Of a stretch of 50,126 nt of DNA, positions 21,958 to 28,835 are shown piece after piece. The notes under the pieces were generated by a model that worked only from the letters and a program-made list of their open reading frames with translations, was not told where the DNA came from and ran no database searches. The stretch is taken from the sequence record NC_049948.1; one strand, 5' to 3'. The translations under genes and the position numbers were made by a program. Source of the DNA: Escherichia phage ev017. The stretch's first letter is position 1. Every line of letters starts with the position of its first letter.

Positions 21958-22048
21958 AAAAAGGTGAGCTGTATATGCAACGGAGGAAGAACCCCCGTTG
22001 CTGGAAGCCAGGAAAAAGTATCGGGTGTTGCTGTCCTCGGATGTTGTG

Positions 22049-22906
22049 CTAATTGGGTGATAACAGATCCTGTGTATGGGAGTTTCCCTTTTTGCGTGCG
22101 TTGATGCTGGTAACGGCAAACGTCATGATGAACAAAACCGCGAATAAGACGACAATCGTCGGAGCTGGTGCGCTGTCGATAAAAAAGGACAACCAGACAC
22201 CAGTCATTGACACTATTACCGATATGCCAGTCGCCAGTAGGAGCGCAATATGAAAGCGTTGTGTCAGGAGTACCGCAATGGCGCCAGGCGCAATGAGCAG
22301 AGAAATGGAGAGAATGATACCTACCGCTTTCAGCGTCGCCACAATGGTCAGAGAGACCATGCACAGCAGCCCATAATGCAGCCATCTCGTATGCAAACCG
22401 CTTACCTGCGCCTGTTGATAATCAAAGCTGAACAGCAAAAAATCCCGCCATTTTACGCTAATAACAAGTGTAACCAGCCCGGCAATAATCATCGTCTGGA
22501 TTATATCGCCGATGGTTATCCCGAGCATGTCGCCGAAAAGAATATGGTCAAGATGTACGTCTGGTTTGACTGCAATATACAAGATCAGACCTGCGGCAAA
22601 CATGCCAGAAAAAACAATCCCCATCACTGTATCTTGCTTGATTCGGCTGTTGTCTTTCAGGTATCCCGTCGCCACCGCGCAGAATACTCCGGCGACGAAT
22701 GCCCCTGTAGCCAAAGGTAACCCCAGAATCCAGGCAAGCACGATTCCAGGAAAAACCGCATGACTCATCGCGTCACCCATCAGTGCCCAACCTTTCAGGA
22801 CCAGAAAGACCGACAGCAGCGCACAGGGTATGGAAACTACCAGTGAAATCAGCAGTGCGTGACTCATAAAGGTGAACTGCAGTGGCTCCAGTAATAATGC
22901 CATCAT
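22049..22906 (-). CDS. sitD: Iron/manganese ABC transporter permease SitD
   Basis: 285-aa polytopic membrane protein typical of the ABC-3 permease family; last gene of a 4-gene operon. Confidence 0.88.
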   Translation of the reverse strand: MMALLLEPLQFTFMSHALLISLVVSIPCALLSVFLVLKGWALMGDAMSHAVFPGIVLAWILGLPLATGAFVAGVFCAVATGYLKDNSRIKQDTVMGIVFSGMFAAGLILYIAVKPDVHLDHILFGDMLGITIGDIIQTMIIAGLVTLVISVKWRDFLLFSFDYQQAQVSGLHTRWLHYGLLCMVSLTIVATLKAVGIILSISLLIAPGAIAVLLTQRFHIALLLATGISVIVSMTGVWLSFFIDSAPAPTIVVLFAVLFIMTFAVTSINARKKGNSHTQDLLSPN

Positions 22907-23760
22907 GAGCGATCCTCCAGCGCCTTATGCGCACGCCGACGATTTGCCAAAAGCCCATGGGTGGGCGCAAAGACAAATGCTAAAAGAAACAGCAGTGTCT
23001 GCGCCACCACGATGATTCCACCTGTCGCGCCGTCCAGAAAGTAACTGACCCACGCGCCGAGGAAACTAGTTACACTGCCAATAGTTACAGCAATCATGAG
23101 CAGGCGGGGAAAACGATCGGTTAACAACCATGCTGTTGCACCGGGAGTCACCACCAGACAGATCACCAGAAAGGCACCAACCGTTTGCAGCGCCGCAACG
23201 GTCGAAACCGACAGCAGGGTGAAGAAGATGAGTTTTAATCTGCCCGGATGCAATCCAATAGCACGGGCGTGATTCTCGTCGAAAAAGGTCACCATAAGAT
23301 CTTTCCATTTGAAAAAAAGCACGATGATCGAGAGAATGCCAATGATAGTGAGTTGCAGGATATCCGCCGGATCGATTGCCAGAATATTGCCCAGGACGAT
23401 GGTCTGAATGTTCACAGATGTCGGGTTCAATGACACCATAAACAGCCCCAGGCCAAAAAAGGACGAGAAGATCAGACCGATGATGGCATCTTCTTTTAAG
23501 CGGGTGCGTTGGTTAAGAAACAGCATGCTGCCCGCAGCCAGTCCGCCGGAAAAGAAGGCTCCCAGAGAAAACGGAAGCCCCAGCATATATGCCCCCGCAA
23601 CACCCGGGACAATAGAGTGCGACAACGCATCGCCAATCAGCGACCAGCCTTTTAGCATCAGATAGCATGACAGGAAAGCGCAGAGACCGCCGACCATCGC
23701 CGAGACCCACATCGCATTGAGCATATATTCATAGCTGAAGGGTTCCAGTAGCACGTTCAT
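22903..23760 (-). CDS. sitC: Iron/manganese ABC transporter permease SitC
   Basis: 285-aa ABC-3 family permease, translationally coupled to sitB and sitD. Confidence 0.88.
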
Positions 23761-24584
23761 CTTTCTTCCCTCTGCACCGCTGACGGTCGATGAGCCACAA
23801 AAGGGCGTTCATCGTCAGTAATAATGCTTTCTTCCGAGCCGTTAAGTGTGACATGGCGCAGTACGCCGCTAAAAGCCAGCTCTAGGTTCTCGGCTGTAAA
23901 AGTGGTGTCTGTCGGCCCGCTTGCCAGGACGGTGCCTTTGACCATGACCGTATAATCGCAAAATGTCGTGACGGATCCGAGATTGTGTGTTGAGACAAGC
24001 ATCGTTTTGCCTTCCGCGCGTAACTCCCTCAACAGGCTGATGATTTTGGCTTCGGTTTTCACATCAACGCCAGTAAAAGGTTCATCCAGCAGGATCACAT
24101 CACCCTGCTGTGCAATCGCTCTCGCCAGAAAGACGCGTTTCTTTTGTCCACCGGAAAGCTCGCCGATTTGTCGATGGCGAAAATTCACCATATCGACACG
24201 TTCCAGCGCATCGGTGACAATTTGACGATCCCTCTTTTTGGCGATACGCAACATACCCATATGCCCATAGCGGCCCATCATCACCACATCTTCCACCAGT
24301 ACAGGAAATGACCAGTCAACATCTTCTGACTGAGGGACGTAGGCAACCAGGTTTTTCTGTAACGCCTGTCGCGTGGGAATACCCAGAACAGATATCTTTC
24401 CGCTGGTCAGACGCACAAATCCCATAATCGCTTTAAACAACGTCGATTTTCCGGAACCGTTTACCCCAACCAGAGCGGCAATAGATCCACTTGGTACTGT
24501 GAAGGATGCATCGCGCAGTGCTGTGTGCCCGTTACGCCAGGTGACAGTAACATCATTAACGACAATGCCTGCAGATTGCATCAT
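23757..24584 (-). CDS. sitB: Iron/manganese ABC transporter ATP-binding protein SitB
   Basis: Walker [13 protein letters not shown] signature LSGGQKKR, Walker B ILLDEP. Confidence 0.92.
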
Positions 24585-25498
24585 TATTTCTCCCTTTTCC
24601 CAGCTTTAATTCCCTGTACCAGCGTACTGGTAGTAACCTTAAGAAGGTCGATATACGTCGGTACCGGGCCGTTTTCTGTGCTCAGGGAATCGACATAGAG
24701 CACACCGCCGTAGTGTGCGCCGGTTTCACGCGCAACCTGACGCGCTGGTTTATCGGAAATCGTACTCTCGCTAAAGACTGCCGGGATATGATTTTTCTTA
24801 ACTATATCAACAACCTTACGTACCTGCTGCGGTGTTCCTTGTTGATCGGCATTAATCGGCCACAGATAAAGCTCTTTTAGCCCCAAATCGCGTGCGAGAT
24901 AAGAAAAAGCCCCTTCACTGGTGACCATCCATCGCTGATTCTCAGGGAGTTCCGTAATCTGCTTACGCAGGGGGGCAAGGGTTTGGGTAATCTTGGCTTT
25001 ATAAGTATCGGCATTGCGTTGGTAGGTTTGTGCATTTGCCGGATCGTATTTTATCAACGCATCACGAATATTATCGACGTAAATCAGAGCATTATCTGGC
25101 GACATCCATGCATGGGGGTTAGGTTTGCCCTCATAGGGTCCTTCGGTGATCCCTACAGGCGTCACACCCGAAGAGACAATTACTTCTGGAACCCCATTGA
25201 GATGCTGGTAAAAGCGTTGGAACCACAATTCCAGATTCATACCATTGGCGAGAATCAGTTGTGCCCCCTGCGCACGTTTAATATCGCCAGGGGTAGGCTG
25301 ATACTCATGAATTTCTGCACCAGGCTTGGTTATGGATGAGACTTCTGCAGCATCTCCCGCCACGTTTTTGGCCATATCCGCGATGATGGTAAATGTTGTA
25401 ATGACCTTGAATTTTTCAGTTGCACTTGCCTGAAATGCGATCGAGCAGGTGAGTGCGAGGCCCCCCAAGAGCATGGTTACTTTTTTTATCGAGTGCAT
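24584..25498 (-). CDS. sitA: Periplasmic metal-binding protein SitA
   Basis: 304 aa with N-terminal signal peptide; cluster-9 metal-binding lipoprotein-like; first gene of operon. Confidence 0.88.
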
Positions 25499-25530
25499 AA
25501 TTTAGTACCTATAGTGAGCAAAATTAGAAC

Positions 25531-25552
25531 AAACATAGCAACGGCTATGTTT
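25531..25552 (-). promoter_or_regulatory. MntR box-like palindrome in sit promoter
   Basis: AAACATAGC-n4-GCTATGTTT inverted repeat upstream of sitA. Confidence 0.65.
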
Positions 25553-25570
25553 TATAGCACAACCTATACA

Positions 25571-25590
25571 AAATGAAAATGATTATCATT
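25571..25590 (-). promoter_or_regulatory. Fur box-like site in sit promoter
   Basis: AAATGAAAATGATTATCATT resembles the Fur consensus GATAATGATAATCATTATC. Confidence 0.6.
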
Positions 25591-25883
25591 AGCGGTTTTG
25601 AGGCCCAAAACAGGGATTAGGTTGTTTCCGGCTGGCGACGCGTTATTGAGGAAAAAAGTAAGGCAGCTAGTAGGCTTTGAAATAACGTTTTGCGGTTGGC
25701 TGATGCAATTTCGAGAGTGCATGTATTGAATGATTTCTAGCCGTTACTGATTTTCGTATTTTTTGTATGGGAGGATTTGCACCTCTCCCCACCGAGCCTC
25801 CATGACTTTACTCCACTGTCTCTAGGGCTGCTGTGTGCCAGGAGCGGAAGCAGGGGGGCCAGAGACTCCTTAAAAGTTGATAG

Positions 25884-25985
25884 CTCGTTTTGCAGGGAGA
25901 CTTACACGGTAAGCGTTATTCCGAAGAGCTTAAAATTGAAGCAGTCAAACGGGTTGTTGAGCGTGTTTATGCGCTGCCATCTGAT
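25884..25985 (+). mobile_element. Possible remnant of an IS3-family transposase OrfA (fragment only)
   Basis: Short frame encoding ...GKRYSEELKIEAVKRVVERVYALPSD resembles the N-terminal HTH region of IS3-family OrfA; no intact transposase or inverted repeats seen. Confidence 0.25.
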
Positions 25986-26184
25986 TAATCGACGGAAGCA
26001 GTTCCGTTTGGTCTATGATGCAGTTGTCCGGCAGGCGCTCTGTGACGCAAAAGAACGATAGGAGTAGCATTGAAGTGAACGAGGTTATGCTTGTCTTATA
26101 TTATCCTCTATTTTAAAAACATCAGCTGGTTGTGTAAGAGTTTTTATTGTTTTATCTTGTTGACTTTGCTTTTATGAAAACAGA

Positions 26185-26955
26185 GTGATTGATACAATGA
26201 AAACCTTAAGTGGGAAAGAGTTTAGGAAATTATTTAATCGTTATGAGACAGGATTCTATCTAAGTGAGTTTGAATACTTAAAGGACTTTGATCCTTTGTT
26301 TCCTGAATGCGTAGGGAAAGAATTAAAGTTGGGTTATAAACGAAAAGTTGATGTATGGTGCGAAGAGGATGCTGCGCTATATGCAGAATTTATAGCTACA
26401 AAAGAAAGGCTGAAAAGAGGCCGGTTAATCCTAAAAATAAACCAAGTGTGGTCGCGTGTATATCCTGCTTATATTTATGCAATTGAAGAAAGAATAAATG
26501 TCAGGGCAAAGGGGAGAGAGTCATTTAAGTATGAAACTGTGCAAGAAAAACAATGTAAACTTTCCATAATGTTAGATGGTCTGAAAGACCTTGAATGTGA
26601 AATAGCTATGATTTCAAGTGAGTTTGAAATTGAAAAACACTCTATGCACTATTTTTATATGATTTTTGATATTGAACGCTATATAAATGACTGCAGTTAC
26701 TTTGTTTTTTCTGCTGCTAAAGTTGTTAAAGGCGTGATTCAATGCATTGGTTACATTGACAAAAATAACAAAGCAAGTTGCGATGAATTTTATTCAGGCA
26801 GCTATGAATGCTTGGATGATGATCAGGAAACACTGAACTATTTAAATGAATCATGCGCAGAGGGTATAGACGCTGATAAAGATCTCATCAGGAAGAATGA
26901 GTTATTAGCCTTATCCCTGAAGGAATTGTATCAACTTCTCGTTTCAAAAAAATAA
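26185..26955 (+). CDS. Hypothetical protein (AT-rich orphan cargo gene)
   Basis: 256-aa ORF, markedly AT-rich relative to its flanks, own upstream AT-rich region; no recognised motif. Confidence 0.6.
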   Translation: MIDTMKTLSGKEFRKLFNRYETGFYLSEFEYLKDFDPLFPECVGKELKLGYKRKVDVWCEEDAALYAEFIATKERLKRGRLILKINQVWSRVYPAYIYAIEERINVRAKGRESFKYETVQEKQCKLSIMLDGLKDLECEIAMISSEFEIEKHSMHYFYMIFDIERYINDCSYFVFSAAKVVKGVIQCIGYIDKNNKASCDEFYSGSYECLDDDQETLNYLNESCAEGIDADKDLIRKNELLALSLKELYQLLVSKK

Positions 26956-27414
26956 CAAGTAATACGGCGAGCGATATGACGTGCCATGGGATATCCGCAC
27001 CCAGCAGCATGTTGTCTCCACGATGTCCGCAGTTCGCTCATAATAGACATTCACTACAGTTATAGTAGAAGGTATGCATGCTGCTGAGTGGGGAAAGTGT
27101 GAAAGAAAAGAAGACAGCTGCTTTGTTTGTCGTCACGTTTATCTTCATTGGCTATGCAAGTCGTAATACAAGGCGGGACAAAACTGAGACACATAAGGCC
27201 TCGCAATGGCTTGCAAGGCCACACATGTATTGAGATGTTAATAAAATGTAGACTTGTAATTTTGATATAAATGGTAGAGAAAATCTTTCCCCAAAATAAA
27301 AACGAACGTCAATGAAATCAAACGGTTGAATAAAGTTGATTTTGGCTAATACAAAGACAAGAAAATAATATTTATGATTAAATATCAGCGAGTTGAATAC
27401 ATAATTTTTATATA

Positions 27415-27579
27415 CTGCTGCGCCATATGGGCTGGACTGAAGCCGCAGACCTGATTGTTAAAGGTATGGAAGGCGCAATCAATGCGAAGACCGTAACCTA
27501 TGACTTCGAACGTCTGATGGAAGGCGCTAAGCTGCTGAAATGTTCAGAGTTTGGTGATGCGATCATCAAGAATATGTAA
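27415..27579 (+). other. icd': Phage-borne 3' fragment of icd (isocitrate dehydrogenase) within the attP region
   Basis: Encodes ...[52 protein letters not shown]-stop, matching the C-terminus of E. coli Icd with substitutions; no upstream icd body. Confidence 0.8.
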
Positions 27580-27602
27580 TCACTACATGTGTTAAATATT
27601 GT

Positions 27603-27630
27603 AACGGGCGTATAACACGCCCGTTGTTTT
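27603..27630 (+). terminator. Rho-independent terminator-like hairpin after the icd fragment
   Basis: AACGGGCG-TATAACA-CGCCCGTT stem-loop followed by GTTTT. Confidence 0.6.
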
Positions 27631-27644
27631 ATGATGATGTAAAA

Positions 27645-27685
27645 TCTTCCCCAAAACTTTCCCCAAAACCCTTCCCCAAAACTGG
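27645..27685. repeat. Three tandem (C/T)TTCCCCAAAAC repeats; candidate integrase arm-type binding sites (a further copy at about 27284-27297)
   Basis: Direct repeats read in the sequence, immediately adjacent to the int stop. Confidence 0.55.
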
Positions 27686-27692
27686 CTATTTT

Positions 27693-28835
27693 CTATGCTG
27701 TTTTGATATCTACGATAATCCAGTCTTTACCACGATCATCATTGTATCGGTCGGTCATTTTTCTGGATTTATGACCTAACAACTTTTGCGTATCCAGACC
27801 CTGTTCCCGATATAACCGTTCTGACAGAGATCGCTGCTCATGAAATGTGGGCGCAGTTCCTGGCTCCCATTTTATGCCACATTTTTCCCTGGCCTTTTTA
27901 AAAGCCGTTGTAAGAGTATTTGCAGACACCTGGTCTCCTCTGTTTGCTTGAGAGGTAGTGTGACGGTAATGGACCAGATATTTACTAACAACAGCATCCC
28001 TGCACTGAGATATAACTTCACGAAGGGTAATATTCAGAGCATCGCATTTCAGGTTAAGCGGAATAGCAAGTTTTGAACCGGTTTTTTCCTGAGTAATGTG
28101 CAACATGTCGTCCCAGATATCAGAGAATTTCAAATTGCAGATATCGCCTAAACGTTGTCCAGTGACAAGAGCAAGTAGCATCCCGCATTTTAAATAGGGC
28201 TGCCGTCTGCTTACGCTGTCAAATATTGCCTGCCATTCGGGCAGTGATAATCTTTGGCGGTTTACTCGATTTCGCGGTTGTTTTGTTGCCTGCGCTGGGT
28301 TAAATCCTGGCGGAACATGTCCTGCGTGTTGTGCTTCTTTGAAGACGTCGATCAACACCATTCTCACGACTTGCGCCATCCTGTTATGACCTTCAGCCTT
28401 TACAGCATCAATTATTTCGGCAATATCAAGTGCGGTAATATCCTTGAGGTGTTGCATTCCACAATGCTCACGGAAAAGACGAATGGGTTTGCCTTTTTGC
28501 CGATAGGAGTTGGGTCTTAGTTCATTATGTTGCAGCCTGTCCTCCTGGATAGAAATATATTTATCAAGCCATTCTGTCACCGTAATGTCTGAGCGCCTGC
28601 CTTTCATTCTTTCTAGACGCTCATTGACGCTTAATATTTGTCGGGTACGTTGTTCAGCAATAATGGTATTTGCTTCAGTAGCAACTTGTTTTGCTTCATT
28701 CTCATCAGTTCCTAAGCTATGAAAACGACCGGATAGTGGATGTTTGTATTGCCAATATACCTTTCCGGTTCGCTTATCTAATTTGCAATATAAATTGGGT
28801 ATAGAGATTTTGTGAGATCGGGGTCTAGCAGCCAT
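27693..28835 (-). CDS. int: Tyrosine integrase (icd-targeting, phage 21/e14-like)
   Basis: 380-aa ORF; catalytic-domain R...HxxR...Y pattern (LGHKSRKMTDRY); adjacent to icd fragment and xis. Confidence 0.9.
   Translation of the reverse strand: MAARPRSHKISIPNLYCKLDKRTGKVYWQYKHPLSGRFHSLGTDENEAKQVATEANTIIAEQRTRQILSVNERLERMKGRRSDITVTEWLDKYISIQEDRLQHNELRPNSYRQKGKPIRLFREHCGMQHLKDITALDIAEIIDAVKAEGHNRMAQVVRMVLIDVFKEAQHAGHVPPGFNPAQATKQPRNRVNRQRLSLPEWQAIFDSVSRRQPYLKCGMLLALVTGQRLGDICNLKFSDIWDDMLHITQEKTGSKLAIPLNLKCDALNITLREVISQCRDAVVSKYLVHYRHTTSQANRGDQVSANTLTTAFKKAREKCGIKWEPGTAPTFHEQRSLSERLYREQGLDTQKLLGHKSRKMTDRYNDDRGKDWIIVDIKTA

What the first reader, a model, noticed from the sequence alone, without database searches (positions are those of the whole stretch)
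25531..25590. Dual metalloregulator boxes (MntR and Fur) upstream of sitA
The near-perfect palindrome AAACATAGC-AACG-GCTATGTTT matches the MntR-box architecture, and AAATGAAAATGATTATCATT resembles a Fur box. Both lie within ~100 bp upstream of sitA, implying host Mn- and Fe-responsive control of a phage-borne operon independent of phage regulation.
Basis: partly seen in the sequence, partly recalled or inferred. Interest (0 to 1): 0.45.

Follow-up and report, generated by a model that had tools for sequence, protein, structure and literature searches.

The report
Fur and MntR operators before sitA
The promoter of the manganese/iron importer operon sitABCD carried by this lambda-like phage contains the standard binding sites for the host's iron (Fur) and manganese (MntR) repressors. 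The arrangement is real but already well known.

Summary
sitABCD lies on the minus strand, with the sitA ATG at 25498. Upstream of it are a Fur box (GCTAATGATAATCATTTTC, 25593..25575, 17/19 to the consensus) and a perfect MntR palindrome (AAACATAGC-N4-GCTATGTTT, 25552..25531). The palindrome's half-sites are identical to those of the E. coli K-12 mntH operator. Neither match is expected by chance in the window. This pair is present in all 23 Enterobacterales sitA promoters I examined and in the E. coli mntS promoter. The 19-bp register is the one at which MntR dimers bind cooperatively in a published cryo-EM structure. The window is a lambda-like phage, 100% identical to phage PhiR57_1 over the 22.3 kb aligned (window 27693-50000), and sit sits in the b region as a moron. 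Dual Fur/MntR repression of sitABCD is textbook for Salmonella and Shigella. A Fur box upstream of lambda-borne sit was published in 2020, and sit expression from the related Perceval prophage was reported in 2023. Verdict: a real, functional-looking regulatory region whose interpretation is supported, but already known and of low interest. The paired MntR operator is a small additional detail.

The parts
25575..25593 (-). Fur box GCTAATGATAATCATTTTC. It contains the 7-1-7 core TGATAATcATTTTCA.
   Evidence: 17/19 to the classic 19-bp consensus, with about 0.01 matches expected per window. Matches of at least 13/19 sit 5-8 nt upstream of MntR box 1 in 13 of 23 orthologous promoters (15 of 23 have such a match within 8 nt); 2.8% of random 65-mers reach 13/19 and none of 5000 reach 17/19.
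25531..25552 (-). MntR box 2 (promoter-proximal): perfect palindrome AAACATAGC-cgtt-GCTATGTTT, core ATAGC-N4-GCTAT at 25548..25535.
   Evidence: Unique in the window, with 0 of 100 shuffles matching. Half-sites are identical to the K-12 mntH operator. It matches the enterobacterial consensus quoted in PMC1698941.
25550..25571 (-). MntR box 2's upstream partner, MntR box 1 (distal, degenerate): TTGTATAGGttgtGCTATAAAA, core 25567..25554, one core mismatch.
   Evidence: Only two core matches with at most 1 mismatch exist in the 50-kb window, and they are 19 bp apart. The same 19-bp pair is present in 23/23 Enterobacterales sitA promoters and in the K-12 mntS promoter.
25551..25559 (-). Predicted extended -10 element TGcTATAAA, embedded in the right arm of box 1 (inferred).
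   Evidence: Read directly from the sequence. TGTGCTATAnAA is nearly invariant in alignment A1. The consensus scanner missed it because the hexamer ends in A.
25574..25579 (-). Predicted -35 hexamer TTTTCA, 17 bp upstream of the -10, overlapping the 3' end of the Fur box (inferred).
   Evidence: Read directly from the sequence. The TTTTCATTT block is conserved in A1 and in the anchored alignment.
24584..25498 (-). sitA, periplasmic Mn/Fe-binding protein.
   Evidence: ORF. NCBIfam Mn/Fe substrate-binding-protein families match. Annotated SitA in identical E. coli and phage records.
23757..24584 (-). sitB, ABC ATPase.
   Evidence: NF011630 manganese/iron ABC transporter ATP-binding protein, 593 bits, above the curated cut-off.
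22903..23760 (-). sitC, permease.
   Evidence: Metal ABC permease families match. Annotated SitC in Nissle 1917 and PhiR57_1.
22049..22906 (-). sitD, permease.
   Evidence: Metal ABC permease families match. Annotated SitD.
25499..25683 (-). Regulatory region that travels with the operon. Homology to the ColV-type plasmid sit copy (86% identity) begins at 25683.
   Evidence: Plasmid hits start at query position 118, which is window 25683. On the plasmid an IS1 lies just upstream.

Best explanation
This is the native sigma-70 promoter/operator region of the sitABCD Mn2+/Fe2+ ABC importer. It is carried as a self-contained 'moron' cassette in the b region of a lambda-like temperate phage.

Fe2+-Fur binds the Fur box (25593..25575), which overlaps the predicted -35 hexamer. 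Mn2+-MntR dimers bind two adjacent operators 19 bp apart: box 1 over the extended -10 element and box 2 over the predicted transcription start. Either repressor would exclude RNA polymerase. The operon should therefore be expressed when the lysogen is short of iron and manganese, regardless of the phage's own CI/Cro/N/Q circuitry.

Shown here: the sequence matches, their statistical rarity, their conservation and fixed spacing in orthologues, the phage context, and the position at the prophage end.

Inferred: the -35/-10/+1 assignment, actual protein binding, and cooperativity between the two MntR dimers.
For: MntR box.
- It is a perfect and unique match.
- Its half-sites are identical to the K-12 mntH operator, which likewise has a Fur box just upstream.
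- It matches the consensus AACATAGCnnnnGCTATGTT that PMC1698941 attributes to Ikeda 2005.

Fur box.
- It matches the consensus at 17/19, with 0.01 matches expected per window.

Conservation.
- 23/23 Enterobacterales sitA promoters carry two ATAGC-N4-GCTAT cores exactly 19 bp apart.
- 15/23 carry a Fur match of at least 13/19 within 8 nt upstream of box 1 (13/23 at 5-8 nt).
- The spacer bases vary freely while the arm sequences are held, which is the signature of a protein-binding site.

Spacing.
- B. subtilis MntR dimers bind 18-bp sites separated by 1 bp, cooperatively.
- E. coli mntS has paired sites at the same spacing (PMC11882963; verified on K-12 DNA).

Published function.
- MntR and Fur repress sitABCD in Salmonella and Shigella (review PMC3852070).
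- A Salmonella sitA-lacZ fusion responds to fur and mntR deletions (PMC8970401).

Phage context.
- The window matches Perceval, PhiR57_1 and ev207.
- A Fur box upstream of lambda-borne sit has been published (PMC6969025).
- sitABCD is transcribed in the Perceval lysogen (PMC9928086).
- The host species encodes mntR.
Against: - No binding, footprint or reporter data exist for this exact copy.
- The simple sigma-70 scanner found no promoter in the region, so the -35/-10 assignment rests on my reading and on analogy with mntS and mntH.
- Box 1 has a core mismatch (ATAGG) and overlaps the -10 element, so part of its conservation could reflect the promoter rather than MntR.
- In the circular or vegetative phage genome, sit lies downstream of int on the same strand. 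Some read-through from pL during lytic growth is therefore not excluded.
Confidence: 0.9

Rival explanations
1. The palindrome is an RNA hairpin, either an intrinsic terminator or an attenuator. It would stop transcripts entering from the int/attP side or regulate sit through its leader.
For: The terminator scan flags 25552..25531 on the minus strand (9-bp stem, 3 G-C pairs). The hairpin folds at -9.8 kcal/mol, z = -4.1 against shuffles.
Against: - The T-tail is poor (GTTCTAATTT).
- In orthologues only the 5-bp ATAGC/GCTAT cores are reliably kept. In 20 of 23 promoters (all but the window, Perceval and Erwinia amylovora) fewer than 9 of 9 arm positions of box 2 are complementary, and the arm sequence is conserved rather than covarying.
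- The element lies between the predicted -10 and the ATG, so most of it would not be in front of the sit transcript's 5' end.
- No Rfam family matches, including the Mn riboswitch.
- The sequence is identical to a known protein operator.
Confidence: 0.03
2. Only Fur regulates the phage-borne copy, which is all the 2020 phage paper noted. The MntR palindromes would be inherited relics with no role in E. coli lysogens.
For: PMC6969025 mentions only a Fur box and never MntR. SitABCD of E. coli transports iron as well as manganese (review).
Against: - The proximal box is a perfect consensus site, identical in its half-sites to the functional K-12 mntH operator.
- E. coli encodes MntR.
- Both boxes are retained in the phage, chromosomal and plasmid sit alleles despite 14% divergence around them.
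- Pantoea promoters keep both MntR boxes while lacking the Fur box, which suggests MntR is the more constant regulator.
Confidence: 0.04
3. The sites are phage regulatory DNA, such as a repressor operator or integrase/IHF/Xis arm sites near attP, and resemble metalloregulator boxes only by coincidence.
For: They lie in a phage genome about 2 kb from int/attP.
Against: - The same region, with the boxes, occurs on ColV-type plasmids next to IS1.
- It also occurs upstream of sitA in at least 20 further Enterobacterales species outside Escherichia.
- attP is at about 27580-27692, next to the icd fragment, far from the boxes.
Confidence: 0.01

Closest known systems
Salmonella enterica serovar Typhimurium sitABCD promoter (Ikeda et al. 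2005, J Bacteriol 187:912) and Shigella flexneri sit promoter (Runyen-Janecky et al. 2006)
   Same: It is the same operon with the same pair of regulators. In the Salmonella arizonae and Citrobacter orthologues I aligned, the layout is the same: Fur box, 7-8 nt gap, box 1 with the -10, then box 2. Repression by Mn-MntR and Fe-Fur is reported in the literature.
   Different: The copy here is carried by an inducible lambda-like phage rather than next to SPI-1. Its proximal MntR box and its Fur box are closer to consensus than those of the Salmonella arizonae allele (18/18 against 15/18 of the specified positions of the 22-bp MntR pattern; 17/19 against 13/19 for Fur). I could not read the primary papers, so I do not know whether they described one MntR site or two.
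E. coli K-12 mntH promoter (Patzer and Hantke 2001: dual repression by Fe-Fur and Mn-MntR)
   Same: The MntR half-sites are identical (AAACATAGC / GCTATGTTT). A Fur box lies upstream and overlaps the -35, and the MntR box lies just before the start codon.
   Different: mntH has a single full MntR palindrome, with no second core 19 bp upstream in my reading. It encodes an NRAMP transporter, is a core gene, and is not mobile.
E. coli mntS (rybA) promoter and B. subtilis mneP/mneS arrays of MntR sites (Shi et al. 2025, PMC11882963)
   Same: Two MntR cores lie 19 bp apart, that is, 18-bp sites separated by 1 bp. The -10 sits in the right arm of the upstream site and the transcript start falls in the downstream site.
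   Different: mntS has no Fur box. mneP/mneS use four weak sites for activation, not repression. Cooperativity at sitA is untested.
Lambda-borne sitABCD morons (Mathieu et al. 2020, PMC6969025; Perceval prophage of LF82, Misson et al. 2023, PMC9928086)
   Same: These are the same phage group and the same cassette. The promoter is 98.5-100% identical. The Fur box has been reported and expression in the lysogen has been reported.
   Different: Those papers do not mention MntR.

Membership tests
Enterobacterial MntR operator | Match to the inverted repeat AACATAGC-N4-GCTATGTT | tested here: met
   The proximal box matches at 16/16, and at 18/18 for the longer AAACATAGC arms. It is identical to the K-12 mntH site.
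Enterobacterial MntR operator | Overlaps the promoter or transcription start of a manganese-homeostasis gene | tested here: inconclusive
   It lies 33-54 nt upstream of the sitA ATG. The -10 and +1 are predicted by eye and by analogy with mntS/rybA. The consensus scanner found no promoter.
Enterobacterial MntR operator | Conserved in orthologous promoters (phylogenetic footprint) | tested here: met
   The ATAGC-N4-GCTAT core is present with at most 2 mismatches in 23/23 Enterobacterales sitA promoters. It is absent in alpha-proteobacterial sitA loci, which have been reported to use Mur.
Enterobacterial MntR operator | Mn2+-dependent binding by MntR and loss of repression in an mntR mutant | not testable with these tools
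   Known only from the literature on Salmonella and Shigella orthologues.
Fur box | Match to the 19-bp consensus GATAATGATAATCATTATC | tested here: met
   17/19 at 25593..25575, with 0.01 matches expected per window. The 7-1-7 core TGATAATnATTATCA matches at 13 of 14 specified positions, by direct reading.
Fur box | Conserved position relative to the promoter in orthologues | tested here: met
   Matches of at least 13/19 lie within 8 nt upstream of box 1 in 15/23 promoters (13/23 at 5-8 nt). They are absent in the six Pantoea promoters.
Fur box | Fe2+-Fur binding and derepression in a fur mutant | not testable with these tools
   Literature only.
Paired, cooperatively bound MntR sites (mntS / mneP type) | Second MntR site with 18-bp sites separated by 1 bp (19-bp register) | tested here: met
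   The cores are at 25548..25535 and 25567..25554. The same spacing is seen in K-12 mntS and in the published structure.
Paired, cooperatively bound MntR sites (mntS / mneP type) | Cooperative dimer-dimer binding | not testable with these tools
   It would need EMSA or mass photometry with E. coli MntR on the 25531-25571 duplex.
Phage moron (lysogenic-conversion cassette) | Non-phage-function genes inserted between phage modules, with their own promoter | tested here: met
   sitABCD lies between the tail-fibre genes and attP/int in a lambda-like genome. Its own promoter region travels with it onto plasmids.
Phage moron (lysogenic-conversion cassette) | Expressed from the repressed prophage | not testable with these tools
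   Published for the 98.5%-identical Perceval copy: 4-13 fold above prophage background.
Phage moron (lysogenic-conversion cassette) | Terminator downstream of the cassette | tested here: inconclusive
   A GC-rich hairpin at 21977-22001 lies about 50 nt after the sitD stop but has no adjacent T-run. The terminator scan reported nothing there.

The most novel reading that the evidence does not exclude
The sitA promoter carries a conserved pair of MntR operators in the 19-bp register that supports cooperative dimer-dimer binding, not a single operator. This gives the importer a steep, switch-like response to manganese.

The same 'weak site over the -10, strong site over +1' design is shared with the mntS promoter. 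That would be cis-regulatory evidence for the proposal that mntS descended from a sitA gene (bioRxiv 10.1101/2023.06.02.543501). I found no mention of paired sites at sitA in the literature I could search.
Probability: 0.45. Interest if true: 0.3.

Novelty: already known. Interest (0 to 1): 0.13.

Why it matters
It documents how a temperate phage plugs a metal-uptake virulence and fitness operon directly into the host's Fur and MntR regulons. The lysogen therefore expresses it under iron and manganese starvation, as in the gut, urine or macrophages, without prophage induction. This is a good teaching example of a moron, but it adds little: the regulators, the sites and the phage carriage are all published. 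The only increment is the conserved paired MntR operator at the cooperative 19-bp spacing. It predicts cooperative Mn sensing at sit and links the sitA and mntS promoters.

Tried and rejected
- The generic sigma-70 scan found no promoter at 25300-26000. I assigned -35 TTTTCA and extended -10 TGcTATAAA by eye. The scanner rejects hexamers that do not end in T.
- The terminator reading of the palindrome was considered and rejected.
- The Rfam scan of 25300-26000 returned nothing, so there is no Mn riboswitch or other known RNA.
- The 52-aa ORF at 25564..25722 (-) that overlaps the Fur box, and the ORFs at 25777..26061 and 26185..26955, had no NCBIfam or Pfam hits. The 52-aa ORF extends upstream of 25683, where homology to the plasmid copy ends, so I treat it as a mechanical ORF.
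- Searching the paper library for the motif string AAACATAGC returned only irrelevant hits.
- The primary papers were not held: Ikeda 2005, Patzer and Hantke 2001, Waters 2011, and the journal version of Wright 2024. What I say about them comes from reviews that cite them or from my own knowledge.
- Searches for 'sitA promoter' and for 'two MntR / MntR boxes' found nothing on paired sites at sitA.
- I did not build a formal Fur or MntR position-weight matrix. I used consensus-mismatch counts with shuffle or random-sequence nulls instead.

Full report
**What is in the sequence**

The four ORFs at 25498..24584, 24584..23757, 23760..22903 and 22906..22049 are all on the minus strand. They are the substrate-binding protein, ATPase and two permeases of a Mn/Fe ABC importer. 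Identical E. coli and phage records annotate them as sitA, sitB, sitC and sitD.

Reading the sense (minus) strand, the order is:
- GCTAATGATAATCATTTTC at 25593..25575;
- a 7-nt gap;
- ATAGGttgtGCTAT at 25567..25554;
- AAAAC;
- ATAGCcgttGCTAT at 25548..25535, which is the centre of the 22-bp palindrome AAACATAGCcgttGCTATGTTT at 25552..25531;
- 32 nt, then the ATG at 25498.

**Is it more than chance?**

The pattern AAACATAGC-N4-GCTATGTTT has one match in the 50-kb window even with three mismatches allowed, and none in 100 dinucleotide-preserving shuffles. The classic 19-bp Fur consensus matches at 17/19 on the sense strand at 25593..25575. About 0.01 matches of that quality are expected per window.

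The shorter core ATAGC-N4-GCTAT occurs only twice in the whole window at one mismatch or fewer. Those two hits are 19 bp apart in front of sitA.

**Comparison with reference operators**

The E. coli K-12 mntH promoter carries AAACATAGCaaagGCTATGTTT immediately before its start codon, with a Fur-like box (TTGATAATCATTCTC) a few turns upstream. Its half-sites are identical to those here, and only the 4-bp spacer differs. Rodionov et al. quote the enterobacterial MntR consensus as AACATAGCnnnnGCTATGTT, citing Ikeda et al. 2005 (PMC1698941). The proximal box matches this at every specified position.

**Phylogenetic footprint**

A search of one genome per species returned sitA loci from about 20 Enterobacterales species and many alpha-proteobacteria. 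The Enterobacterales included Phytobacter, Shimwellia, Izhakiella, Pantoea, Erwinia, Buttiauxella, Atlantibacter, Salmonella arizonae, Klebsiella, Raoultella, Citrobacter and Enterobacter.

I compared those 20 Enterobacterales promoters with the window, phage Perceval and a ColV-type plasmid copy, 23 sequences in all. Every one carries two ATAGC-N4-GCTAT cores (at most 2 mismatches each) exactly 19 bp apart. Spacer bases vary freely. The arm sequences are conserved rather than covarying, which points to protein recognition and not to an RNA hairpin.

A Fur match of at least 13/19 lies within 8 nt upstream of the distal MntR box in 15 of the 23, and 5-8 nt upstream in 13. Random 65-mers of the same composition reach 13/19 in 2.8% of trials, 15/19 in 0.02%, and never 17/19. 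The six Pantoea promoters keep both MntR boxes but have no Fur box. Alpha-proteobacterial loci lack the MntR motif, consistent with published work that they use Mur instead.

The phage allele, the Perceval/ev207 allele and the 86%-identical plasmid allele differ at several flanking positions. All keep the Fur box and both MntR boxes. The plasmid allele has one mismatch in box 2 and a perfect box 1.

**The 19-bp register**

Shi et al. (Nat Commun 2025, PMC11882963) solved B. subtilis MntR dimers on the mneP promoter. [quoted passage not shown] The authors note that E. coli mntS has two sites at the identical spacing overlapping its promoter.

I confirmed on K-12 DNA that the mntS/rybA promoter has cores at L085 2059-2072 and 2078-2091, also 19 bp apart. 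The annotated RybA 5' end falls inside the downstream core, and a TATAAT hexamer lies in the right arm of the upstream one. The sitA region here has the same design.

The predicted promoter consists of:
- an extended -10, TGcTATAAA, at 25559..25551, lying in the right arm of box 1;
- a -35 hexamer, TTTTCA, at 25579..25574, 17 bp upstream, overlapping the 3' end of the Fur box;
- an implied transcription start around 25543-25546, inside box 2.

This promoter assignment is inference. The simple consensus scanner did not call it, because the hexamer ends in A.

**Mechanism**

Fe2+-Fur over the -35, and one or two Mn2+-MntR dimers over the -10 and the start site, would each exclude RNA polymerase. 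Transcription should therefore need low iron and low manganese. This is the published behaviour of sitABCD in Salmonella and Shigella:
- A review cites Ikeda 2005 and Runyen-Janecky 2006 for it (PMC3852070).
- A Salmonella sitA-lacZ fusion responds to fur and mntR deletions (PMC8970401).
- It is also the behaviour of E. coli mntH (Patzer and Hantke 2001, cited).
- From my own knowledge of the Ikeda abstract, point mutations in the putative Fur and MntR sites abolished the respective controls. I could not open that paper.

**Phage context and independence from phage regulation**

The window is collinear with phage Perceval, at 99.3% identity over 10 kb around sit. It is 100% identical to Escherichia phage PhiR57_1 over window 27693-50000. 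PhiR57_1 is a canonical lambda-like genome (cI, cro, N, O, P, Q, S, R, Rz, bor, J, stf) with SitABCD after the side tail fibre genes.

The integrase gene is at 27693..28835. A 3' fragment of icd lies at 27412-27579. Homology to the Nissle 1917 prophage end stops at 27630. attP is therefore next to int, and the phage integrates in icd.

After integration, sit lies about 2.1 kb from the prophage end and reads inward. Only two opposite-strand ORFs and then host DNA lie upstream of it. No phage promoter can feed it in a lysogen.

Misson et al. found sitABCD transcribed 4-13 fold above the silent prophage background in LF82, which carries the Perceval prophage (PMC9928086). Mathieu et al. found sitABCD on 70% of infant-gut lambda phages. 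[quoted passage not shown] They do not mention MntR.

The cassette is extremely common. The 401-bp promoter query hits 2350 of 5426 complete E. coli genomes, on chromosomes and plasmids. Homology between the phage and plasmid copies starts at window 25683, so the operators are part of the mobile unit.

**Rivals**

The palindrome can fold as RNA at -9.8 kcal/mol and was flagged as terminator-like. Against this reading:
- its T-tail is poor;
- only the 5-bp cores are reliably kept in orthologues;
- it lies downstream of the predicted -10;
- no Rfam family matches the region.

A phage-specific operator or arm site is excluded because the same region occurs on plasmids and in non-phage chromosomal contexts.

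**Verdict**

Dual Fur/MntR control of sitABCD has been established since 2005-2006. The Fur box on lambda-borne sit was published in 2020, and expression in lysogens in 2023.

The one thing I can add is that the MntR operator at sitA is a conserved pair at the cooperative 19-bp spacing. It mirrors the mntS promoter, which is interesting given the proposal that mntS derives from a sitA signal-peptide region (bioRxiv 10.1101/2023.06.02.543501; that paper does not discuss binding sites). I could not establish whether the pair has been described before.

Noticed in passing
The pair at this spacing is present in 23/23 Enterobacterales sitA promoters and in the E. coli K-12 mntS promoter. It matches the cooperative-binding register seen by cryo-EM for B. 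subtilis MntR.
   Followed up: yes
window 27412-27579 (+), and 27580-27692: The phage carries the last ~55 codons of isocitrate dehydrogenase (icd) next to int. Homology with the Nissle 1917 prophage end stops at 27630. This is therefore an icd-integrating lambdoid phage that restores the icd 3' end on insertion.
   Followed up: partly
window ~25908-25988 (+): A short reading frame, GKRYSEELKIEAVKRVVERVYALPSD*, weakly resembles the N-terminus of IS3-type transposases (Pfam HTH_Tnp_1, E = 0.003, below the gathering score). It may be an IS scar about 410 nt upstream of sitA, marking how the cassette entered the phage.
   Followed up: partly
window 25683; L083 632-1329: Homology between the phage/chromosomal sit copy and the ColV-type plasmid copy (86% identity) begins about 185 nt upstream of the sitA ATG. 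On the plasmid an IS1 sits immediately upstream. The Fur and MntR operators therefore move with the operon.
   Followed up: partly
window 21977-22001: A GC-rich inverted repeat (10-bp arms, 90% complementary, 5-nt loop) lies about 50 nt after the sitD stop, between sitD and the convergent small ORFs that follow the tail fibre gene. It has no adjacent T-run, so its role as a terminator is unclear.
   Followed up: partly
L006, L010, L011, L012, L021, L022 (Pantoea sitA loci), ~100 nt upstream of sitA: Pantoea sitA promoters keep both MntR boxes but have no recognisable Fur box. Photobacterium loci (L062, L064) have a strong Fur box (16/19) and no MntR box. The regulator pairing of sit promoters varies by lineage.
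   Followed up: partly
L085 2059-2091 (E. coli K-12 mntS promoter) compared with window 25531-25571: The mntS and sitA promoters share the same core design: a weak MntR site containing the -10, and a strong MntR site over the transcription start. This fits the published idea that mntS evolved from a sitA signal-peptide region. The preprint I could read does not mention this cis-regulatory similarity.
   Followed up: partly
window 26185-26955 (+): A 256-aa ORF lies between sitA and attP and is conserved in Perceval, PhiR57_1 and Nissle 1917, where it is annotated as hypothetical. It has no Pfam or NCBIfam hit.
   Followed up: no
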